Positions 10,331 through 23,387 are shown, counted from the stretch's first letter. The stretch: DNA of 24,000 nucleotides from Thalassobaculum sp. OXR-137 (GCF_034377285.1 NZ_CP139715.1:4939465-4963464); one strand, 5' to 3'. Numbers and translations are program-made. The notes: generated from the sequence alone by a model not told the origin.

Positions 10331-10760
10331 GTCGGTTTGTCCTTCCGTCGAGTTGTTCAATTCTGCGAAGGACACCCACGCCCCGCGCATGAACCTCTGC
10401 CCAGCGGCGAGCGACGACGACAAACCAGTGACAACAGGGAGAACAGGCGTTCAGGCGGCGAAGCGCCGACATCCGACGGGCTCCAAGAGAGCCGCGCCGC
10501 AAAGCGGCGGCATCCGGCCAACACGGGACCCCCGACTTGATCGGGGGGAACGGAGCGGGCAGGCCGGACGGCGACCTTGGAAAAGACCGGCGGGGTCGGC
10601 ACAAGCTGGACAGAGAGGTTACAAGCGCGAAGCGCAACCCAACAGGTCAACGCCGTCCCGCAGGGACGACATTATGGGGCGTTGCGGGGCATCCCCGCAG
10701 AAGGGGTGACGGAAACGCCGATAGGTGGTTGCAGGCAGGGGAAGGCGTTCCCCGCCTAAA
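10331..10760 (-). other. ~430-nt non-coding, hairpin-dense region upstream of the 75aa-DUF2958-ParB operon
   Basis: At least six short GC hairpins. Examples: GCCGC-AAA-GCGGC, CCCCCGA-CTTGA-TCGGGGG, GCGC-GAA-GCGC, GTCCC-GCA-GGGAC, CGGGG-CAT-CCCCG. There is partial similarity (GGAACGGAGCGGG..GGACGGCGACC..AAGACCGG) to the leader family. Confidence 0.45.
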
Positions 10761-10786
10761 ATTACTACTATTTTTACTATTTTCCC

Positions 10787-10815
10787 TTGTTTTGCGTTTG
10801 GAGAACAGATAGGAT
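10787..10815 (+). promoter_or_regulatory. Candidate sigma70-type promoter of the three-gene cargo operon
   Basis: TTGTTT (10787-10792), a 17-nt spacer, then TAGGAT (10810-10815). It sits in an AT-rich tract with a TACTATTTT direct repeat, about 40 nt upstream of the first ATG. Confidence 0.4.
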
Positions 10816-10855
10816 GACATCAGAATAATCAGCATACGAACGAAAGGACTGCCCC

Positions 10856-11275
10856 ATGCCGGACCTGCGAACCATCGAGATCGACTTCGAAGTACACAAA
10901 ATCATCGAGCTTGAGCGGAAGAGCTTCTCGGAGACCCCAAACGAAGTGCTGCGTCGATTATTGAAGGTGAGTGGAAAGCGCCCCTCACTCCAACCACAGA
11001 AAGCGACAACCGGACGCCCCTGGTCGGGTAAAGGCGTGACGCTGCCACACGGTACAGAACTTCAGATGGATTATAATGGTCGCCAGTACACGGGGGCCAT
11101 CGACAATGGTGAATGGGTTGTTGAAGGTCAGCGGTTCAAGAGCCCGTCCGCTGCGGCTGGTGGTGTCGCTGTGACCAAGAGCGGAAAACATACCAACCTG
11201 GACGGCTGGAACTATTGGCAGGCCAAACGCCCCGGCGATACAGACTGGGTCGCAATAAAGGACATGCGGCGCTAA
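10856..11275 (+). CDS. Small DNA-binding protein: SeqA-N-like ribbon-helix-helix N-terminus + RAMA/DUF4357-like C-terminus
   Basis: RTIEIDFEVHKIIELERKSFSETPNEVLRRLLK aligns by eye with E. coli SeqA residues 2-35 ([33 protein letters not shown]). The C-terminal F.SPSAAAGGV......NLDGWNYW pattern is typical of restriction/methylase-associated RAMA-type domains. AAAGGA SD present. Confidence 0.7.
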   Translation: MPDLRTIEIDFEVHKIIELERKSFSETPNEVLRRLLKVSGKRPSLQPQKATTGRPWSGKGVTLPHGTELQMDYNGRQYTGAIDNGEWVVEGQRFKSPSAAAGGVAVTKSGKHTNLDGWNYWQAKRPGDTDWVAIKDMRR

Positions 11276-11300
11276 AGGCACGCGTCAGGAGAATGAACCC

Positions 11301-12512
11301 GTGGTCGATATAAGCAAGCTGAACAAAGCTGCGCGCGCAGCCCAGAAACTGACCGAGCAGCACCAAGGTACGATCGAGGCGGCGCAACGTATTGCCCACA
11401 GCCCGGCCATGCAGGCCATGAAGGCGCTCCAGGAGAACTCCGCGGTAACTCGATTAATGGCCGATATGGAGCGCCATCAAGCGCTCATTCGTGCCGCACA
11501 AGGGCCATTTGAAGAGTTGCGCAGATCAGGCGTTTTCAACCACGCCTCCGCCCTGCAAGAGCAACTCCGCCCAGTTCGGGAGATAATAGACGCGTTCAAT
11601 GCACGGTTCACCCTGCCGGAGGTGCCCGCCGCGGTGAAGCTCATGCAGGAGTTCCAGCAGAGTCCTGCGGCTGAGGCGATAGCGAGATATGCAACACGGG
11701 CTGACGAGATCCAGCGTGCCATGGAAGCCATGCACACGCCGTGGTTGGATGCGCAAGAGACCCTGCGGTCAGTGACAGGCTTCGCGGAAATACAGGGCAT
11801 TGGCAGAATGCTTGAGAACATGCCTGCCTTTGACGACGCCGTTTGCAAAGCGCTCCGGGTCGATCTTGGCGACTGGCGGGACAAGATTACCTGGCCGGAG
11901 CCGGTGTTGACGGACCTGGTCGCACGTGAGGCCTTTTACGTTGACTTAGGCTTTGACACGTCCCTTACCGACTTCCCGGCCCCGGCGTTTCGAGAAAGCA
12001 CCGAGATCGCCGGCCTGCGACGTGCACCGCCCCCGGTCGTGACCGCCTACGGTGAGCCTATCCCACGCATTGAAACCGATGAGGAAGAGGAAGCATTCAC
12101 CCTGACCAACGTCGCGCACGATTGGCTACAACGTTTTGAGTTCCATCTGAGAAACTTCATCGATGCTCGGATGACTGAAGCTTTTGGCCGAGAGTGGCCG
12201 AAACATCAACTACCGAACGGCGTCTATGATCAGTGGATGGCGAAGCGCGACGCTGCGGTGAAAGCCGGGAGGCAGGCGCTTCAATTGATTGCCTATGCCG
12301 ATTTCACGGACTACGAGCGTGTGATCTGCAAGAAGGATAACTGGCGTCAGGTGTTCCACATCTACTTCGTTCGCCAAGAGAACGTCCGCGAGAGCTTCCA
12401 GCGGCTGCATCCGATCCGCTTAGACACCATGCACGCGCGCCCAATTATTCAGGACGACGAGATACTTCTGTATGTTGAAGTGAAGCGTTTCACTAAAATA
12501 TTTTTTAGCTAA
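11301..12512 (+). CDS. Helical N-terminal domain + C-terminal Swt1-like HEPN domain protein (predicted RNase)
   Basis: GTG start lies 7 nt after AGGAGAA. The C-terminal ~120 aa (FEFHLRNFIDARM..GREW......IAYADFTDYERVI...NW..F...F......F.RLHPIRLDTMHARP) match the Swt1-like HEPN pattern. The Rx4H motif is R373-H378 (nt 12417-12434). Confidence 0.7.
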   Translation: MVDISKLNKAARAAQKLTEQHQGTIEAAQRIAHSPAMQAMKALQENSAVTRLMADMERHQALIRAAQGPFEELRRSGVFNHASALQEQLRPVREIIDAFNARFTLPEVPAAVKLMQEFQQSPAAEAIARYATRADEIQRAMEAMHTPWLDAQETLRSVTGFAEIQGIGRMLENMPAFDDAVCKALRVDLGDWRDKITWPEPVLTDLVAREAFYVDLGFDTSLTDFPAPAFRESTEIAGLRRAPPPVVTAYGEPIPRIETDEEEEAFTLTNVAHDWLQRFEFHLRNFIDARMTEAFGREWPKHQLPNGVYDQWMAKRDAAVKAGRQALQLIAYADFTDYERVICKKDNWRQVFHIYFVRQENVRESFQRLHPIRLDTMHARPIIQDDEILLYVEVKRFTKIFFS

Positions 12513-12523
12513 GGAGTAATTCC

Positions 12524-13396
12524 ATGCAGGATGACGCAAGGTCAGACGATGAAATTCAATTAGCGGCGAGGCATCTCTTCGAAGGTGTTGTGCCAGAACG
12601 CTCTGCTGAGCTGATCGCGCTATGGAAGCAATACCAGCCCAAGTTTCATCTCCTCTCGGATGATGGTCCGGATGGGATGTTTGTCATGGCCGCTGGCCGA
12701 TATCGCGACGTCGCATTCAATCACCGAGCTCTGAGGGCCTTTTGGTTAGCAGCCTTTATCGCGTGGGAAGGCTATCTGCGGGTCCACGAAGTAGCGACGA
12801 ATGGTTCGGCTGATTTCGACCGGTTCGATGACATGGTTAATCTTTTCGCCCGCATACTAGCCGAAGAAGACCCGTCAAGCGTTCCATTGCCGCAAGGCGT
12901 GTCGGAGCCTGGGCATTACACTGATGCGAAGCAATCTCCTCAAGAAAGGGCGGCAGCCGAACTGGCAACCTTTGCCACCGGCTGGGCGTTTCTGCATGAG
13001 ATTAGACATATAAAACACCAGCAGGAAGGTACCGGCGCCGCACCTGATGATCCGGTGGAGAAGCACCACGAGGAAGAGCTGTCGTGCGATGAATATGCAA
13101 CGACTTTCATACTTGATGGTGTCGACCAGTATGCCCAGACCGAAAACGTGGATTCGGAGAAAGTCAGGCAAAAGCGCGAATTGGGCATCTACTTTGCCCA
13201 GTTCGCGATGACCTTAATCGGCGCGGGTTACTGGGACGCGTCGGATACACACCCGGCGATGCAAAAGCGTATAGACGCGACCATTAAGCTAATGGGCGGC
13301 TCAGGGACACGCATGTCTGATGCCGTTGCCCACGCGGCATTTGCAGCCCTTTGGCGTAAATGGCCGGATGCGCCTGGCCCATTTCGGGCCTCATAG
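12524..13396 (+). CDS. HExxH zincin metallopeptidase-like protein (ImmA/IrrE-like arrangement)
   Basis: HEIRH at aa 158-162 (nt 12995-13009) is followed ~20 aa later by EEELSCDEYAT, a possible third ligand or E..A motif. AAGGAG SD overlaps the upstream stop, so the operon is tightly coupled. Confidence 0.65.
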   Translation: MQDDARSDDEIQLAARHLFEGVVPERSAELIALWKQYQPKFHLLSDDGPDGMFVMAAGRYRDVAFNHRALRAFWLAAFIAWEGYLRVHEVATNGSADFDRFDDMVNLFARILAEEDPSSVPLPQGVSEPGHYTDAKQSPQERAAAELATFATGWAFLHEIRHIKHQQEGTGAAPDDPVEKHHEEELSCDEYATTFILDGVDQYAQTENVDSEKVRQKRELGIYFAQFAMTLIGAGYWDASDTHPAMQKRIDATIKLMGGSGTRMSDAVAHAAFAALWRKWPDAPGPFRAS

Positions 13397-13463
13397 TATC
13401 TGCCTAAGTGTTGTCCCCAATACCTCACGGCAACGACACCTCAAAACATGATAGAAAGGCCGC

Positions 13464-14372
13464 CTAAGCGGCGGCCTCGGTGATATCGGTGGCTTGCAGC
13501 CCCGCCAAATAGTCGGTCGCCTTGGCGGCCTGACTTGCGGCGGTGAAGATGGCCTTCTTGTCGGCTTTCAGGACCTTCAGCCAGTTGTCGATGTAGGCGG
13601 CATGGTCGGGGCGCGGTTCCAGCGTGATCCCAAGGTCAGCACAGAGGAAGGCAGCGCCCAGCTCGGCCACGAGTTCTTCGACGGCATAGGCGTCATCGCC
13701 GAAACGTTTGCCGAATTCACGGTCGCAGCGCTTGGCACAGCCGGTCCAATGGGTCAGCTCATGAAGCAGAGTGCCATAGTAGCTTTCCGTCGCCGTGCTG
13801 GTTTCCGTGCCCATGAAGCGCTCGCGCTCGGGCATCTGGATGAAGTCATCAGGGAAGCGGTAGAAGGCGCGGTTGCCACCGTGGCGGATATCGACCCCTG
13901 TGGCTGCGATGAAGGCTTCGGCTGCGTCGTGGATTTGCGCCGGGTCTTTCGGTTCCGGCAATGGCGGGGCTTCGAACCCGTCCACCTGATCGGCGTTAAA
14001 GACGTAGCTGGCGCGGGCCATGAGGCGTTTGCCATGTTCGGTCTCGCCGTCGTCCTTCTGCTCTTCCACGTCGAATTCTTTGTAGAAGACCACGAGGCTG
14101 GATTTCTCGCCCTTGCGGACCTGACAGCCCTTGTTCTGCCATTGGCGATAGGTGCCCCAGGTGCCGGTCGAGAAGCCGCGTGCTTGGGCTGAGGCCCAGA
14201 GGCTGACGACGTTGATCCCGCGATAGGCGTTGGTGGTGTCGATGTTGACGGGGCGGTTCAAGCCTTGGCCTGAGCGGTGCCAGGGCATCTGCCAGTCACC
14301 GGCTCCGGCTTCGATGGCGGCGATGATGGTGTTGGTCACTTGGGTGTAAACGTCTTGGCGTTCGGTCTTCAT
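13464..14372 (-). CDS. ardC: ArdC-type antirestriction protein (ssDNA-binding N-domain + zincin HExxH C-domain)
   Basis: N-terminal pattern W..PW......P.N..T...YRGINV..LW, and C-terminal LLHELTHWTG. ATG 14372 is preceded by AAGGAGAG. The track extension to 14567 runs into the conserved leader. Confidence 0.85.
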   Translation of the reverse strand: MKTERQDVYTQVTNTIIAAIEAGAGDWQMPWHRSGQGLNRPVNIDTTNAYRGINVVSLWASAQARGFSTGTWGTYRQWQNKGCQVRKGEKSSLVVFYKEFDVEEQKDDGETEHGKRLMARASYVFNADQVDGFEAPPLPEPKDPAQIHDAAEAFIAATGVDIRHGGNRAFYRFPDDFIQMPERERFMGTETSTATESYYGTLLHELTHWTGCAKRCDREFGKRFGDDAYAVEELVAELGAAFLCADLGITLEPRPDHAAYIDNWLKVLKADKKAIFTAASQAAKATDYLAGLQATDITEAAA

Positions 14373-19794: not shown

Positions 19795-20601
19795 TTAGAC
19801 GTAAATCCAAACGAGCAAAAAGACACCAAGAATGAGCCGGTAGACGACAAACGGCATAAAGGTCGCTCGCCGCAACCAACTCATCAGAAAGGCAATGGCC
19901 AACAACGCGGCGATGAATGAGAACCCGGCCGCGATGATGGCATCACCCTGAAGGGCCGCATCACCTGATTGCCACAGATCCACACCAGCCATCGTACCGG
20001 CGGCGGCCGTCGTCGGGATCGAAAGGAGAAGCGAGAACCTTGCCGCCGCCTCTCGGCGGAATCCGAGAAGCAAGGCGGCTGTCATGGTGATTCCGGAGCG
20101 GCTCACGCCGGGCACCAGCGCCAGGGCCTGGGCAAGGCCGATCAGAACGGCGACACGCAACGTCATTCGGTCAAAGGCGAGGCCCGTCTGGGCCGCAACC
20201 GAACGGTCGGCAACCCAAAGCAAAACGCCAAATCCGATGGTAGTCACGGCAATAAGGAGTGGGTCACGCCAATCAGTCGCGACGGTGGACGCAAGCGCAA
20301 ACCCAGCGAGGACGACAGGCATGGTGGCGAGGGCCACCTGTAGCGCCAGCCGCGCGTCACTGGTTTGGGTATTGCCACGCAAGAGTTGGAAACCGCCCTG
20401 CACCATTGCAGCGGTTTCACGGTGGAAGTAGAGCATGACGGCTGCCAGTGTGCCGATATGCATGGCGACGTCGATTGCCAGTCCCTGATCCGGCCAGCCT
20501 GTTAGAGCGGGAACAAGAATGAGGTGCGCCGAGGAACTGATGGGCAGGAACTCGGTAATGCCCTGCACCACGGCGAGCACTATCAATTCAAACCAACCCA
20601 T
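19795..20601 (-). CDS. uppP: Undecaprenyl-diphosphate phosphatase (UppP/BacA)
   Basis: VQGITEFLPISSSAHL N-terminal signature and a polytopic membrane profile. ATG 20601 is preferred over the GTG at 20607. Confidence 0.85.
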   Translation of the reverse strand: MGWFELIVLAVVQGITEFLPISSSAHLILVPALTGWPDQGLAIDVAMHIGTLAAVMLYFHRETAAMVQGGFQLLRGNTQTSDARLALQVALATMPVVLAGFALASTVATDWRDPLLIAVTTIGFGVLLWVADRSVAAQTGLAFDRMTLRVAVLIGLAQALALVPGVSRSGITMTAALLLGFRREAAARFSLLLSIPTTAAAGTMAGVDLWQSGDAALQGDAIIAAGFSFIAALLAIAFLMSWLRRATFMPFVVYRLILGVFLLVWIYV

Positions 20602-20685
20602 CAGCACAATGCCTCAGAGAGATGTGCCACGGCGCAGCGGAGGACAGGTAACGAAGAAGGAATCATTCCAGAATTCTCCGACGAA

Positions 20686-21657
20686 TTACAGCCAGCCGCG
20701 GCGCTTGAAATAGACATAAGGCAGAATGGCGGAAGCGATCATCAGGCAAATTGCGAAGGGATAGCCGACCAGCCATTTCAGTTCGGGCATATATTCGAAG
20801 TTCATACCGTAGATCGAGGCGATCAGTGTCGGCGGCAGGAAGACGACCGCTGCCACCGAGAAAATCTTGATAATCGCATTCTGCTCGATATTGATCATGC
20901 CGAGCGTGGCGTCGAGCAGGAAGGTAACCTTCTGGGACATGAACCCGGAATGATCGGAGAGTGACCGGATGTCGCGCGAAAGTGTTTTGATCCGTTCACG
21001 CGAGTCCTTGCTGCTTTTCTGCTGGAGAGTCGCCTGCCCGAGATACCCGGCTAGCCGTTCCAGCGTCACCAGACTGTCGCGGACGTTAGAGGTCAGGTCT
21101 CCCTTGCGGCCGATCGACTCGATGATAGTCTGAAGGTCCGCACTTTTCGTGGGCTTGCCACTTGTCTTTCGGAAGATGCTACGGGAAATTGCGTCGATGT
21201 CGCGCCCGGCGCGCTCAAGTATATCCGCCAGCCTGTCCACCACGGCCTCAAGCAGCGCAATCAGCACACCTTCAGCTGTGTCGCAGCCCATTGCGACCTT
21301 TTCAGCACGAACTGGAAAGGTCCGGAAGGCGCGCGGTTCGTGGTAGCGCACGGTAACCAGGTGCGTTGCCGTCAAAACGAACGTCACAGGGTGCATGTCC
21401 ACATCGTCGCCATCGGCGTTGGCCGGCAGAATCGCTGTCATGAAGGACGCACCATTTTCCGTGTAGAGGCGAGAGGAAATCTCGATTTCCTCCATCTCCT
21501 CCTTGGTCGGGATGTCCAAGGCCAGTTTCTGTTCGAGTTCCGCTTCTTCGGCTGAAGATGGATCGACCAGATCGATCCACACCGCATGCCCGACGTCATC
21601 CACCTTTTCTCCTAGCGGTTTCAGACGTCCAGCGTCGGTGGCAAAAGATCTCATCAT
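20686..21657 (-). CDS. corA: CorA-family magnesium/cobalt transporter
   Basis: YGMNF (GMN) motif in IYGMNFEYMPEL, followed by a final TM helix and a KRRGWL C-terminus. Confidence 0.85.
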   Translation of the reverse strand: MMRSFATDAGRLKPLGEKVDDVGHAVWIDLVDPSSAEEAELEQKLALDIPTKEEMEEIEISSRLYTENGASFMTAILPANADGDDVDMHPVTFVLTATHLVTVRYHEPRAFRTFPVRAEKVAMGCDTAEGVLIALLEAVVDRLADILERAGRDIDAISRSIFRKTSGKPTKSADLQTIIESIGRKGDLTSNVRDSLVTLERLAGYLGQATLQQKSSKDSRERIKTLSRDIRSLSDHSGFMSQKVTFLLDATLGMINIEQNAIIKIFSVAAVVFLPPTLIASIYGMNFEYMPELKWLVGYPFAICLMIASAILPYVYFKRRGWL

Positions 21658-21975
21658 GGCGAATTTCCCGGATGTTAGAGGGGAACGCCGTGAAGGCGCC
21701 TTTGGTTATCGTGTTACTGCATTTTAATGTTATTTGTTTGAAATAACAAAATATTAGCTAAGAAAATACGAAGACGATCAAGTCGGATTTCGATCTCGGT
21801 GGTCGGCGGCAGTTCATAGGCAGCCCCCAGGTGAACGGGTGCCGGTAGTGTCGCTGGATGCAATCGGAACAAGGCGCAATCTGATAGTCGATCTGTTGAC
21901 CGATGATCAGGACCCTTTGTTGGCTGTGATGGAAACAAGTGGGGAGCAACTGCCCCTAAAGTGCCCCTGAACAGC

Positions 21976-22008
21976 AAAAAGCCCCGATCCGAAGATCGAG
22001 GCTTTTTT
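21976..22008. terminator. Bidirectional rho-independent terminator just 3' of the tRNA fragment
   Basis: AAAAA, then GCCCCGATC (21981-21989), CGAA loop, GATCGAGGC (21994-22002), then TTTTTT. The stem pairs at 8/9 bp. Confidence 0.7.
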
Positions 22009-22037
22009 GTTTTTTGCTGTATTATCAGCTAGATAGT

Positions 22038-22084
22038 TGGTTGCGGGAGTAGGATTTGAACCTACGACCTTCAGGTTATGAGCC
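22038..22084 (-). other. 5'-truncated initiator tRNA-Met (CAU) fragment = attachment-site core
   Basis: The minus strand reads GGCTCATAACCTGAAGGTCGTAGGTTCAAATCCTACTCCCGCAACCA. That covers the anticodon loop, 3' anticodon stem, variable loop, T-arm, 3' acceptor strand and CCA, and resembles tRNA-fMet. The sequence 5' of it (ggggaattgtgccaaaaataggttttcgctt) cannot supply the acceptor, D-arm or 5' anticodon stem. Confidence 0.8.
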
Positions 22085-22097
22085 AAGCGAAAACCTA

Positions 22098-22236
22098 TTT
22101 TTGGCACAATTCCCCAACAATTCTCAACACTCATATAGCTGTTATTGCTTATATTTTTTACTCACCACGCTTGGCCATCATTGAGGTTTGTTGATTGTCA
22201 CTGTGCCAAAAATGTGCCAAAAACGCTTTGGGCACA
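22098..22236. promoter_or_regulatory. GTGCCAAAAA repeats between att core and int (candidate arm-type integrase/Xis sites)
   Basis: Inverted copy TTTTTGGCAC at 22098-22107. Direct copies at 22203-22212 and 22214-22223, with an 11-bp period. A degenerate inverted copy CTTTGGGCACA lies at 22226-22236. Confidence 0.55.
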
Positions 22237-22265
22237 TTCACTCAGTCCGGCTCCCGAGGCACCCC

Positions 22266-23387
22266 ATGGCGACCATCCAGAAGCGCGAAGGCAAGAAAGG
22301 CCCGTCCTATCGGGTCATGGTTCGGATGAAGGGGTTCCCCGACCAGGTACGTACCTTCAAGCGCCTAACGGACGCCAAGCAATGGGCGCAAGAAACTGAG
22401 ACGGGCATCCGCAAGGGCGAGTTCAAGAATGTTGTGCGCACGGCAGCGAGCAAGACCCTTCAGGACGTGATCGACCGGTTCCGCAAGGAAGTGTTCATCC
22501 ATCGTGCGGAGACAACCAAGCGGGCGGAAGCCTCCTTCGTCGCCCATTGGGAACGGGAGCTTGGCGGCTATGCACTTGCCTACATCACAGCAGACCTGAT
22601 CAGCGAGAAGATGGGTGAGCTGGCAGCGGCGGGCGATGGTCGCCGCAAGCTGACCGATGACGAAAAGCCGAAAAAGCCGCCCCGCCCCAAGAGCCCGAAG
22701 ACGCTGAAACATTACCGCGACACGCTGGCCATGCTGTTCAAGTATGCCATGCAGTGGGGCTGGACCGGCTCAAGCCCATTGGACGGGGTGAACCGGATAA
22801 CGAAGATCAGGAACGAGCGTGCTCGATTCCTGAGCGACGATGAACGCAAGCGACTGCTCGACGCCTGCAAGGCCAGCGATAACGAGCACCTTTATCCCGT
22901 CGTGGTGTTTGCCCTGTCAACGGGCGCACGGAAGGGAGAAATCCTCGGCCTGACACTTAGCGATCTCGACCTGGCTCGCGATACGGCCATCCTGCGGGAT
23001 ACCAAGAACGGCGATACGCGCGCTGTGCCGGTCGTGCATCACCTTCGCGACGTGTTGACTGAGCAAGTCGCCAAGATAGACGCCTTCTACGACGCGCTGG
23101 AAGATCAACCCAAAACCCGCTGGCTGTTCCCCCGTCGGGATGGGCTGGAGCCCATGGATATCCGCAAGGCTTGGGAGAATGCGCGGGATGCGGCCAACCT
23201 GGAAGACTTCCGCTTCCATGACCTGCGGCATTCCACGGCAAGCTACCTTGCCATGAATGGCGCAAGCCTTGTGGAGATTGCCGACATCCTCGGGCATCGG
23301 ACGCTTCAGATGGTGCGGCGGTATGCGCACTTGTCCGAGAGCCACGTGAAGGGTGTCGTGACGCAATTGAATGAAAAGCTTTTCTGA
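22266..23387 (+). CDS. int: Tyrosine site-specific integrase
   Basis: C-terminal catalytic pattern: ARKGE (R), FHDLRHS (HxxR), LGHRTLQMVRRYAHL (H, Y). ATG 22266 lies after GAGG. The track start at 22188 would translate through the arm-type repeats. Confidence 0.9.
   Translation: MATIQKREGKKGPSYRVMVRMKGFPDQVRTFKRLTDAKQWAQETETGIRKGEFKNVVRTAASKTLQDVIDRFRKEVFIHRAETTKRAEASFVAHWERELGGYALAYITADLISEKMGELAAAGDGRRKLTDDEKPKKPPRPKSPKTLKHYRDTLAMLFKYAMQWGWTGSSPLDGVNRITKIRNERARFLSDDERKRLLDACKASDNEHLYPVVVFALSTGARKGEILGLTLSDLDLARDTAILRDTKNGDTRAVPVVHHLRDVLTEQVAKIDAFYDALEDQPKTRWLFPRRDGLEPMDIRKAWENARDAANLEDFRFHDLRHSTASYLAMNGASLVEIADILGHRTLQMVRRYAHLSESHVKGVVTQLNEKLF

What the first reader, a model, noticed from the sequence alone, without database searches (positions are those of the whole stretch)
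10787..13396. Three-gene cargo operon (RHH/RAMA-like binder + Swt1-like HEPN + HExxH zincin): candidate undescribed defence or abortive-infection system
A compact plus-strand operon sits between the DUF2958/ParB operon and ardC. It has its own promoter-like element, and its three genes are separated by only 25 and 11 nt with good SDs.

The operon is inverted relative to the surrounding minus-strand backbone genes and is visibly more AT-rich. Both features fit an acquired cargo insertion.

- Gene 1 (139 aa) has an N-terminus that aligns by eye with the SeqA N-terminal RHH-like domain. Its C-terminus carries the SPSAAA...GW.YW signature of restriction/methylase-associated (RAMA/DUF4357-type) DNA-binding modules.
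- Gene 2 (403 aa) joins a long helical N-domain to a Swt1-like HEPN domain with an intact Rx4H motif (R373..H378). HEPN domains are RNase effectors in many toxin-antitoxin, Abi and CRISPR-accessory systems.
- Gene 3 (290 aa) carries HEIRH followed by an EEE..DEYA motif, as in ImmA/IrrE-type zincins. These act as proteolytic switches in several conflict systems.

I do not recognise this combination of a DNA-sensing or regulatory protein, a HEPN effector and a zincin modulator as a named system.
Basis: partly seen in the sequence, partly recalled or inferred. Interest (0 to 1): 0.85.

Follow-up and report, generated by a model that had tools for sequence, protein, structure and literature searches.

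The report
Stacked Lit protease and HEPN defence genes
A conjugative element carries a real three-gene operon encoding a small DNA-binding protein, an uncharacterised HEPN-type RNase and a distant relative of the known phage-exclusion protease Lit. Because each gene is also found on its own elsewhere, it looks like a small stack of separable anti-phage genes rather than a new three-part system.

Summary
The operon is real: three plus-strand ORFs (139, 403 and 290 aa), gaps of 25 and 11 nt, good Shine-Dalgarno (SD) sequences, and lower GC than the backbone.

- Gene 1 is SeqA_N-like plus RAMA.
- Gene 2 is a Swt1-family HEPN with an invariant Rx4H.

Gene 3 was mis-classed. It is Peptidase U49, the phage-exclusion protein Lit family, a known single-gene abortive-infection effector, and not an ImmA/IrrE switch.

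The trio is not a widely conserved system:
- It recurs, in the same order, in a narrow clade in three different mobile-element contexts.
- Each gene also occurs alone at high identity (g1 70%, g2 71%, g3 86%).
- 0 of 79 other Lit-like loci carry g1 or g2.
- About 70 of 76 g2 loci lack both g1 and g3.

g2 relatives sit in defence and toxin-antitoxin settings (HsdR, Mrr, PIN, MNT, HigB), which supports a defence role.

Best reading: a compact defence islet of separable genes, co-transcribed from gene 1's conserved promoter.

The least-known part is gene 2. It belongs to a large family (about 670 clusters at 50% identity) whose N-terminal domain has no detectable structural relative.

Verdict: moderate interest; a new variant of known kinds.

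The parts
10763..10778 (+). Conserved 16-nt element TACTACTATTTTTACT, about 80-90 nt upstream of the g1 ATG and just upstream of the -35. Candidate operator or activator site belonging to the g1 module.
   Evidence: An exact 16/16 match lies at the same relative position in L001, L055 and L164, although the g1 proteins differ by 6-23% and the g2 proteins by 16-38%. It occurs once in the window, with 0 expected by chance even allowing 3 mismatches. Degenerate TACT/CACTTGA versions lie upstream of solitary g1 genes.
10787..10815 (+). Promoter-like element: -35 TTGTTT (10787-10792), 17-nt spacer, -10 TAGGAT (10810-10815).
   Evidence: Read directly from the sequence. It scores 8 of 12 and so was not listed by the scan. 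The aligned positions in L001, L055 and L164 also read TTGAxx-17-TAGxxT. The surrounding 99 nt are 36% GC.
10856..11275 (+). Gene 1, 139 aa. N-terminal SeqA_N-like (ribbon-helix-helix-type) segment (aa 5-39) plus a C-terminal RAMA domain (aa 65-125). A small DNA-binding protein, probably the regulator of its own promoter.
   Evidence: Pfam gives RAMA 7.5e-6, SeqA_N 1.2e-4 and DUF2924 8e-4, all below the gathering thresholds for this protein. Many of the 457 homologues carry precomputed PF18755 and/or PF17206 hits. PADLOC PDC-S14 scores 7e-6 over the RAMA part.
11301..12512 (+). Gene 2, 403 aa. A family-specific all-alpha N-terminal domain (about aa 60-255; invariant LGDWR, W198, Y213, GF) plus a C-terminal Swt1-family HEPN domain (aa ~265-403). 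Rx4H is R373 (12417-12419) and H378 (12432-12434). Predicted latent RNase.
   Evidence: - Pfam HEPN_Swt1 scores 1.3e-5 (25.8 bits, gathering threshold 27.5) for the window protein. All 34 sampled family members hit it, best 1e-11.
- All 34 also hit PADLOC PDC-M34B, best 4.5e-14, over the HEPN part only.
- R373 and H378 are invariant in 115 sequences.
- The AF2 model has pLDDT 81.6 and pTM 0.81.
- The N-domain is always followed by about 145 aa in the listed near-full-length hits, among 670 cluster representatives in total.
12524..13396 (+). Gene 3, 290 aa. Lit-family zinc metallopeptidase (Peptidase U49) with HEIRH at aa 158-162 (12995-13009).
   Evidence: - Pfam PF10463 scores 2.8e-10, 40.6 bits, above the gathering threshold of 23.9.
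- PADLOC Lit scores 1.1e-14.
- NCBIfam Lit PRK09672 scores 2.1e-27, 96 bits, below the equivalog cut-off of 274.
- hhalign of the family against E. coli K-12 Lit gives probability 96% over 221 columns with HExxH aligned.
- BLASTP gives 25% identity.
13451..13477 (.). GC-rich hairpin GGCCGCC-TAAG-CGGCGGCC between the convergent g3 and ardC genes. On the minus strand it is followed by a T-run, so it is the ardC terminator. It may also stop the plus-strand operon transcript.
   Evidence: No other terminator-like site lies on the + strand inside 10856-13396.

Best explanation
The region is a compact defence islet in a cargo slot of a conjugative/integrative element. The backbone is relaxase, NikA, ParB, DUF2958, [operon], ArdC, T4CP (the type IV coupling protein), RepA, ParA and an integrase.

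Three separable genes are transcribed together from gene 1's own conserved promoter.

- **Gene 3** is a Lit-family zinc protease. By analogy with E. coli Lit, it stays latent until a phage late protein appears. It then cleaves a translation factor (EF-Tu in E. coli) and aborts the infection.
- **Gene 2** is an independent latent HEPN RNase. Its family-specific N-terminal domain most likely keeps the RNase off and senses infection. Once on, it would cut cellular or phage RNA.
- **Gene 1** is a small SeqA_N-like/RAMA DNA-binding protein. It most likely binds the conserved TACT-rich element in front of its own gene and so sets the expression of whatever lies downstream.

Shown here: gene reality, domain identities, catalytic motifs, separability of the three genes, defence-type neighbourhoods, and the conserved upstream element.

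Inferred only: latency, triggers, substrates, gene 1's binding site and co-transcription.
For: **Identities**
- g3 is Lit/U49.
- g2 is Swt1-family HEPN with an invariant Rx4H.
- g1 is RAMA plus SeqA_N.

**Separability**
- g3 at 86% identity sits alone beside IS elements (L165).
- g2 sits without g1 or g3 at 71% in a chromosome (L166), at 69% in a Halomonas island with Mrr, MazE/PIN and an AAA_21 ATPase (L289), and at 62% on another conjugative element (L291). A 68% relative (L290) also lacks both, although only 666 nt of flank follow g2 there. tblastn confirms the absences.
- g1 at 60-70% sits alone in three unrelated contexts.
- 0 of 79 other Lit-like loci have g1 or g2 within 5 kb.
- Of 76 g2 loci, 3 have g3-like genes and 3 have g1.
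- L001 has the same backbone (ParB 69%, ArdC 68%) with g1 at 94% and g2 at 84% but no g3.

**Defence context**
- A type I HsdR gene lies next to g2 relatives in L006 and L025, which belong to a six-protein neighbour cluster from six loci.
- Upstream of g2 relatives are a HigB toxin, an MNT nucleotidyltransferase or a Zeta-like kinase.
- XRE-HTH fusions occur in four g2 relatives.
- Lit-like genes are packed behind ATPases, Fic, TatD, methylase and M78 genes.
- g2 is absent from IMG/VR viral contigs.

**Single-gene function of Lit**
Reviewed in PMC3014915 and PMC13581612.

**Promoter module**
The 16-mer is exact upstream of g1 in all g1-g2 loci and degenerate upstream of solitary g1 genes.
Against: - The g1-g2-g3 order and tight spacing are kept in three different element contexts at 62-79% identity: the window, L055 next to an integrase, and L164.
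- g2 and g3 identities fall together across these loci, which fits selection for linkage.
- A distant Acidobacteriota locus independently has HsdR, g2, then a Lit-like gene 17 nt downstream (L006).
- These points allow some functional cooperation.
- No experiment supports latency, trigger or substrate for any of the three proteins.
- g3 is only about 25% identical to E. coli Lit and falls far below the NCBIfam equivalog cut-off, so EF-Tu as its target is an extrapolation.
Confidence: 0.55

Rival explanations
1. An integrated three-component abortive-infection system. Gene 1 reads the methylation state or presence of incoming DNA. The Lit-like protease then processes the HEPN protein, for example by removing or remodelling its N-terminal domain, or the two act as obligate co-effectors.
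For: - The same gene order and 10-11 nt g2-g3 spacing occur in the window, L055 and L164, in different genomic contexts.
- g2 and g3 identities decline together across the trio loci.
- There is an independent g2-Lit adjacency in L006 and a nearby one in L050.
- RAMA is a predicted m6A-DNA reader (PMC4738411).
Against: - Every gene is found alone at 70-86% identity.
- From g3's side the linkage is 0 of 79.
- The closest g1-g2 relative, on the same backbone, lacks g3.
- Partners of both g2 and Lit-like genes are highly variable.
- E. coli Lit works as a single gene (PMC3014915).
Confidence: 0.15
2. A toxin-antitoxin-type addiction module that stabilises the conjugative element. Gene 2 is the toxin and gene 1 (or gene 3) is the antitoxin or autorepressor.
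For: - HEPN proteins are common TA toxins.
- Some g2 relatives sit beside MNT, HigB or Zeta-like genes or carry a HigA-like HTH.
- g1 is a small DNA-binding protein upstream of g2 with a conserved operator-like site.
Against: - g2 at 62-71% identity persists with no g1, no g3 and no fused HTH in chromosomes and islands, so it is tolerated without them.
- g1 occurs alone among housekeeping genes.
- No MNT partner is present in the window.
Confidence: 0.1
3. Not anti-phage. The cassette serves the element's own biology. For example, gene 1 may act as a methyl-DNA-binding regulator of transfer or establishment genes next to ardC, with the HEPN and Lit-like proteins acting against competing plasmids or in host manipulation after conjugation.
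For: - The cassette sits between ParB/DUF2958 and the anti-restriction gene ardC, a region often expressed early after transfer.
- g2 relatives occur on 19 plasmids and on another conjugative element.
- Lit-family genes occur on many conjugative plasmids.
Against: - The same trio occurs outside conjugation backbones (L055, L164).
- g2 relatives are typically in R-M/TA islands or in chromosomes.
- The founding Lit is a phage-exclusion protein.
Confidence: 0.1

Closest known systems
Lit (cell death peptidase Lit, Peptidase U49) of the E. coli K-12 e14 prophage: Gol-activated cleavage of EF-Tu
   Same: - Gene 3 is co-linear with Lit over about 220 residues.
- It has the same HExxH and the downstream EE..D..AT and THPA..RI motifs.
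- It scores above the Pfam U49 threshold.
- It is carried on a mobile element.
- Homologues are named 'phage exclusion protein Lit family protein' by NCBI.
   Different: - It is only about 25% identical to Lit.
- It scores 96 bits against the 274-bit equivalog cut-off.
- Here it is the last gene of a three-gene operon, whereas e14 lit stands alone.
- Its trigger and substrate are untested.
Abi2/Swt1-clade HEPN RNases of prokaryotic defence (Anantharaman et al. 2013, PMC3710099) and single-protein HEPN defences such as AbiF and ApeA
   Same: - Gene 2 has a C-terminal HEPN domain with a conserved Rx4H.
- Relatives are embedded next to type I R-M genes and TA genes, as described for this clade.
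   Different: - It has a 260-aa family-specific N-terminal domain with no Pfam hit.
- That domain has no significant PDB or BFVD structural match and no similarity to its own HEPN half.
- No member has been characterised, as far as the searches here found.
PADLOC candidate system PDC-M34 (component B)
   Same: The HEPN part of gene 2 (aa 271-386) and of all 34 sampled relatives matches the PDC-M34B models.
   Different: - The model is about 190 aa and covers only the HEPN part.
- No gene in the operon matches a PDC-M34A component.
- PDC entries are untested candidates, and no paper in the library mentions PDC-M34.
HepT/MntA (HEPN-MNT, type VII) toxin-antitoxin systems
   Same: The toxin is a HEPN RNase. 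One distant g2 relative (L065) has an MNT-type nucleotidyltransferase just upstream.
   Different: - There is no MNT gene in the window.
- g2 is three times longer than HepT.
- g2 survives alone in genomes.
RAMA-domain proteins, including RAMA fused to SeqA (Iyer et al. 2016, PMC4738411)
   Same: Gene 1 combines a SeqA_N-like segment with a RAMA domain. The paper lists fusion of RAMA to the SeqA domain among its architectures.
   Different: - It is a free-standing 139-aa protein with no nuclease or methylase attached or adjacent.
- The Pfam scores of this protein are below threshold.
- Binding to methylated DNA is untested.

Membership tests
Lit / Peptidase U49 | Match to the family profile above the curated threshold | tested here: met
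   PF10463 scores 40.6 bits against a gathering threshold of 23.9, covering aa 68-255. PADLOC Lit scores 1.1e-14 over aa 22-268.
Lit / Peptidase U49 | HExxH zinc-binding and catalytic motif | tested here: met
   HEIRH lies at aa 158-162. H158, E159 and H162 are invariant in 37 homologues. The motif aligns with HEISH of E. coli Lit.
Lit / Peptidase U49 | Orthologue-level (equivalog) similarity to E. coli Lit | tested here: not met
   NCBIfam NF007238 scores 96 bits against a cut-off of 274. BLASTP gives 25% identity over 156 aa. This makes it a family member, not an equivalog.
Lit / Peptidase U49 | Phage-peptide-activated cleavage of EF-Tu (Gly59-Ile60) | not testable with these tools
   This needs biochemistry. 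The mechanism is taken from PMC3014915.
HEPN superfamily, Swt1/Abi2 clade | Rx4-6H catalytic motif | tested here: met
   The motif is R373-LDTM-H378. Both residues are invariant in 115 aligned homologues.
HEPN superfamily, Swt1/Abi2 clade | Profile match to PF18731 | tested here: inconclusive
   The window protein scores 25.8 bits against a gathering threshold of 27.5. However, 34 of 34 family members match at E<=1e-3, best 9.7e-12, and NCBI names relatives 'Swt1 family HEPN domain-containing protein'.
HEPN superfamily, Swt1/Abi2 clade | All-alpha HEPN fold | tested here: inconclusive
PADLOC PDC-M34 | Both components (A and B) present | tested here: not met
   There is only a B-type match on g2. 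g1 and g3 hit PDC-S14 and Lit respectively, not M34A.
   There is no PF06114 hit at E<=1 for g3. True M78 genes were detected with the same tool in L001, L085 and L164.
HEPN-MNT (type VII) or other type II-like toxin-antitoxin pair | Toxin always accompanied by its cognate antitoxin gene | tested here: not met
   There is no MNT gene in the window. g2 relatives at 62-71% identity lack g1, g3 and a fused HTH.
RAMA domain proteins | Profile match to PF18755 | tested here: inconclusive
   The window protein scores 26.3 bits against a gathering threshold of 35.2. Most close homologues carry a precomputed PF18755 hit, and several also carry PF17206 SeqA_N.
Multi-gene defence system (generic) | Components co-occur across diverse genomes | tested here: not met
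   - All three genes occur together only in the window's own clade: L055, L164, and the copies L077 and L163.
- Of 76 g2 loci, 3 have g1 and 3 have g3-like genes.
- 0 of 79 other g3 loci have g1 or g2.
-.

The most novel reading that the evidence does not exclude
The g1-g2-g3 cassette is a genuine cooperative system, specific to one clade. A RAMA-type DNA reader controls or triggers a pair of effectors, and the Lit-like protease acts on or with the HEPN protein. This would be a protease-gated RNase, an arrangement not described for Lit-family enzymes.

A weaker but likelier novel element is that the gene 2 family is an undescribed single-gene abortive-infection defence. It comprises about 670 clusters at 50% identity, and its N-terminal domain has no detectable structural relative.
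Probability: 0.15. Interest if true: 0.65.

Novelty: new variant of a known kind. Interest (0 to 1): 0.38.

Why it matters
- If gene 2's family is a working defence, it adds a widespread HEPN effector with an unknown sensor domain. The family spans Alpha-, Gamma- and Deltaproteobacteria, Acidobacteriota, Thermodesulfobacteriota, Gemmatimonadota, Chloroflexota and a candidate-phylum (Berkelbacteria) MAG.
- The cassette shows that a distant Lit-family protease can be recruited behind other effectors on conjugative elements. It gives a natural test of whether stacked abortive-infection genes cooperate.
- Gene 1 is a highly conserved, free-standing SeqA_N/RAMA protein with its own conserved upstream element. 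It could be a small methyl-DNA-binding regulator worth testing in Alphaproteobacteria.
- None of this overturns current views. It extends known categories.

Tried and rejected
- **Near-identical DNA in PLSDB plasmids:** none found.
- **Rfam on the whole window:** nothing at gathering score.
- **Flanking repeats as signs of a discrete insertion:** only short chance-level repeats.
- **Fold searches for gene 2:**
  - With the poor first model, only a weak AbiF hit.
  - With the good model, no significant PDB or viral (BFVD) match.
  - Profile against PDB sequences: only a chance Staufen hit, E 0.19.
- **Gene 2's N-domain as a degenerate second HEPN:** hhalign of the N half against the C half gave probability 0.1%. 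Rejected.
- **The conserved 16-mer in viral contigs:** more than 120 hits, all in AT-rich DNA (median 33% GC) with no g1, g2 or g3 nearby. These are chance matches.
- **Gene 2 relatives in IMG/VR:** none.
- **Literature on PDC-M34:** none.
- **First Lit literature query:** too generic to be useful.
- **A fixed partner for Lit-like genes:** the upstream genes are heterogeneous.
- **A fixed partner for gene 2:** no neighbour cluster exceeded 6 of about 65 loci.
Full report
**1. Observation**

- g1: 10856-11275, 139 aa.
- g2: 11301-12512, 403 aa, GTG start.
- g3: 12524-13396, 290 aa.
- The gaps between them are 25 and 11 nt.

Each has a plausible ribosome-binding site, and that of g3 (TAAGGAG) overlaps the g2 stop codon.

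Upstream lies a 99-nt stretch of 36% GC. It holds TTGTTT, a 17-nt spacer, then TAGGAT (10787-10815). At 8 of 12 matches this falls just below the threshold of the promoter scan.

The operon is 55.6% GC against 60.0% for the rest of the window. Its GC3 is 57-67% against 71-76% in the neighbouring backbone genes. It is low, but not the lowest stretch of the window.

The neighbours ParB, DUF2958 and ArdC are on the minus strand.

The wider window is a conjugative/integrative element. It holds a MobA/VirD2 relaxase, NikA, ParB, DUF2958, ArdC, a VirD4/TraG coupling protein, RepA, ParA and a tyrosine integrase.

Near-identical copies exist on two JGI metagenome contigs (L077, L163).

**2. What the genes are**

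*Gene 3* is not an ImmA/IrrE-type zincin. It is Peptidase U49, the Lit family.
- Pfam PF10463 scores above threshold.
- PADLOC Lit scores 1e-14.
- NCBIfam's Lit model scores 2e-27, but well under the equivalog cut-off.
- A profile of 37 homologues aligns with E. coli K-12 Lit over 221 columns at 96% probability, with the HExxH in register. Pairwise identity is about 25%.
- Lit of prophage e14 is a latent zinc protease. It cleaves EF-Tu when the Gol segment of the T4 major capsid protein is made, aborting infection (PMC3014915; PMC13581612).

*Gene 2* has a C-terminal Swt1-family HEPN domain.
- The window protein scores just under the Pfam threshold, but all 34 sampled relatives hit PF18731.
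- R373 and H378 are invariant in 115 sequences.
- The HEPN part also matches PADLOC candidate PDC-M34B.
- The first 260 residues form a family-specific domain with very strongly conserved motifs (PWLD, QGIG, LGDWRD-ITWP, LTDFPAPAF).
- An exhaustive search with that part alone found 670 cluster representatives. In the listed near-full-length hits the match is followed by about 145 residues, which is the size of the HEPN domain.
- A model built on 115 sequences is confident (pLDDT 81.6, pTM 0.81). It has no significant match among solved or viral structures.
- Its N half is not a detectable HEPN duplicate.

*Gene 1* combines a SeqA_N-like segment and a RAMA domain.
- The scores are sub-threshold for this protein but recur in its 457 homologues.
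- RAMA is a predicted reader of N6-methyladenine in DNA, and fusion to the SeqA domain is among its listed architectures (PMC4738411).

**3. Is it one system?**

*From gene 2's side (76 genomic loci, one genome per species):*
- Only L055 has all three genes.
- L001 has g1 and g2 only, and L002 has g2 with a partial g1.
- L006 has g2 plus a distant Lit-like gene (28% identity) 17 nt downstream.
- L050 has a frameshifted g2 and a Lit-like gene on the other strand.
- No neighbour family reached more than 6 of about 65 loci. That one includes the type I restriction subunit HsdR (L006 and L025 were scanned).

*From gene 3's side:*
- None of 79 other metagenomic Lit-like loci has g1 or g2 within 5 kb.
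- The upstream neighbours are a mixed bag: AAA_13/AAA_21 ATPase, Fic, TatD, M78 peptidase, DNA methylase and integrases.

*Close relatives stand alone:*
- g3 at 86% identity, beside IS elements (L165).
- g2 at 71% in a chromosome between a LysR gene and a HicB gene (L166).
- g2 at 69% in a Halomonas island with Mrr, MazE/PIN and an AAA_21 ATPase (L289).
- g2 at 62% on another conjugative element (L291).
- g1 at 60-70% at the end of a phage-like cluster, between two giant helicase/ATPase genes, and between leuA and ilvC.
- tblastn confirms the absences.

*On the other hand:*
- The trio recurs in the same order and spacing in L055, beside an integrase and an RNase_T gene.
- It also recurs in L164, behind DUF87, RNase_T and HTH-M78 genes. 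Neither shares the window's backbone.
- Matching contig lengths in the hit lists suggest further small contigs with g2+g3 or g1+g2+g3. This is inferred, not checked.
- In L001 the cassette genes (94% and 84%) are much closer to the window than the shared backbone is (60-69%). The cassette has therefore moved between related elements.

The picture is a facultative, clade-limited linkage of three separable genes.

**4. The gene 1 promoter module**

- A 16-mer, TACTACTATTTTTACT, lies just upstream of the -35 (window 10763-10778).
- It is exact in L001, L055 and L164 at the same place, while the proteins have diverged by up to 38%.
- It occurs once in the window, against zero expected even with three mismatches.
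- Degenerate TACT/CACTTGA versions precede solitary g1 genes.
- The element therefore seems to belong to g1, and g2 and g3 ride on g1's promoter.
- That g1 binds it is an inference.

**5. Mechanism**

The most likely model has confidence about 0.55.
- It is a defence islet of independent abortive-infection-type genes.
- The Lit-like protease and the HEPN RNase are each latent and each self-sufficient.
- g1 is the local transcription regulator.
- The defence reading for g2 rests on three things: its HEPN motif, its neighbourhoods (HsdR, Mrr, PIN, HigB, MNT, Zeta-like kinase, XRE fusions), and its absence from viral contigs. This agrees with what was described for the Abi2/Swt1 HEPN clade (PMC3710099).

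Rivals:
- A truly cooperative three-part system (0.15). It is kept alive by the conserved order in three contexts and by the independent L006 adjacency.
- A TA-type addiction module (0.10). It is weakened by solitary g2 genes.
- An element-centred, non-phage role (0.10).

**6. Comparison and novelty**

- Gene 3 is a distant new member of the Lit family.
- Gene 2 is an uncharacterised HEPN family with a new N-terminal domain.
- Gene 1 is a free-standing RAMA protein.
- The combination is not a named system. It is also not a conserved one.
- I rate it a new variant of known kinds, with interest about 0.38.
- Most of that interest rests on the gene 2 family and on the chance to test whether stacked effectors cooperate.

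Noticed in passing
window 10763-10778; L001 5464-5479; L055 5424-5439; L164 6243-6258: An exact 16-nt element, TACTACTATTTTTACT, is conserved upstream of gene 1 across loci whose proteins differ by up to 38%. Degenerate versions lie upstream of solitary gene 1 homologues. It is probably an operator or activator site.
   Followed up: partly
L162 5001-5420 (between leuA and ilvC); L157; L161: Gene 1 homologues (60-70% identical, about 140 aa) occur as lone genes in housekeeping, phage-like and helicase-rich contexts. The family is unusually well conserved for a small protein. It might be a general SeqA-like methyl-DNA-binding factor in Alphaproteobacteria.
   Followed up: partly
L015 5353-7092 and L018 5432-7239: Gene 2 relatives with an N-terminal XRE-type HTH sit directly behind a HigB-like toxin gene. 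They occupy the HigA antitoxin position, which suggests a HigA-like HTH fused to the N-domain+HEPN protein.
   Followed up: partly
L065 5525-7023; L039 5303-7056: One gene 2 relative has an MNT-type nucleotidyltransferase just upstream, the classic HEPN-MNT arrangement. Another has a Zeta-toxin/AAA_33 kinase overlapping its start.
   Followed up: no
L102-L106, L130 (886-aa AAA_13/AAA_21 ATPase, 8 nt, Lit-like, then a 303-aa unknown); L109-L115 (513-aa Fic protein, 38 nt, Lit-like): Lit-family genes recur as the tightly coupled downstream gene of different large genes. In L103 and L104 the Lit-like ORF runs on into the next gene, giving a 592-aa ORF. These may be distinct Lit-containing multi-gene systems.
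   Followed up: partly
L001 7275-8947 (minus strand): In the Amorphus element, which shares the window's backbone and g1-g2, the place of gene 3 is taken by a convergent XRE-HTH plus Peptidase_M78 (ImmA/IrrE-type) gene pair.
   Followed up: partly
window 19795-23387 versus L163 15540-16988: After the ParA gene, the window carries BacA (undecaprenyl-diphosphatase), CorA and a tyrosine integrase. The otherwise 91-100% identical contig L163 carries a mer operon (MerR, MerT, HMA) instead, so a second cargo slot has different content.
   Followed up: no
window 10424-10756: About 330 nt of GC-rich sequence lie between the 106-aa minus-strand ORF and the AT-rich gene 1 promoter. It has overlapping long ORFs on both strands but no homologue-supported gene identified here and no Rfam match.
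   Followed up: no
L050 5920-7118; L165 6626-7768: The gene 2 relative in L050 is split by a frameshift and is a likely pseudogene. The 86%-identical lone gene 3 in L165 lies directly behind IS3-type transposase genes, a possible route of mobilisation or of loss of the upstream genes.
   Followed up: no
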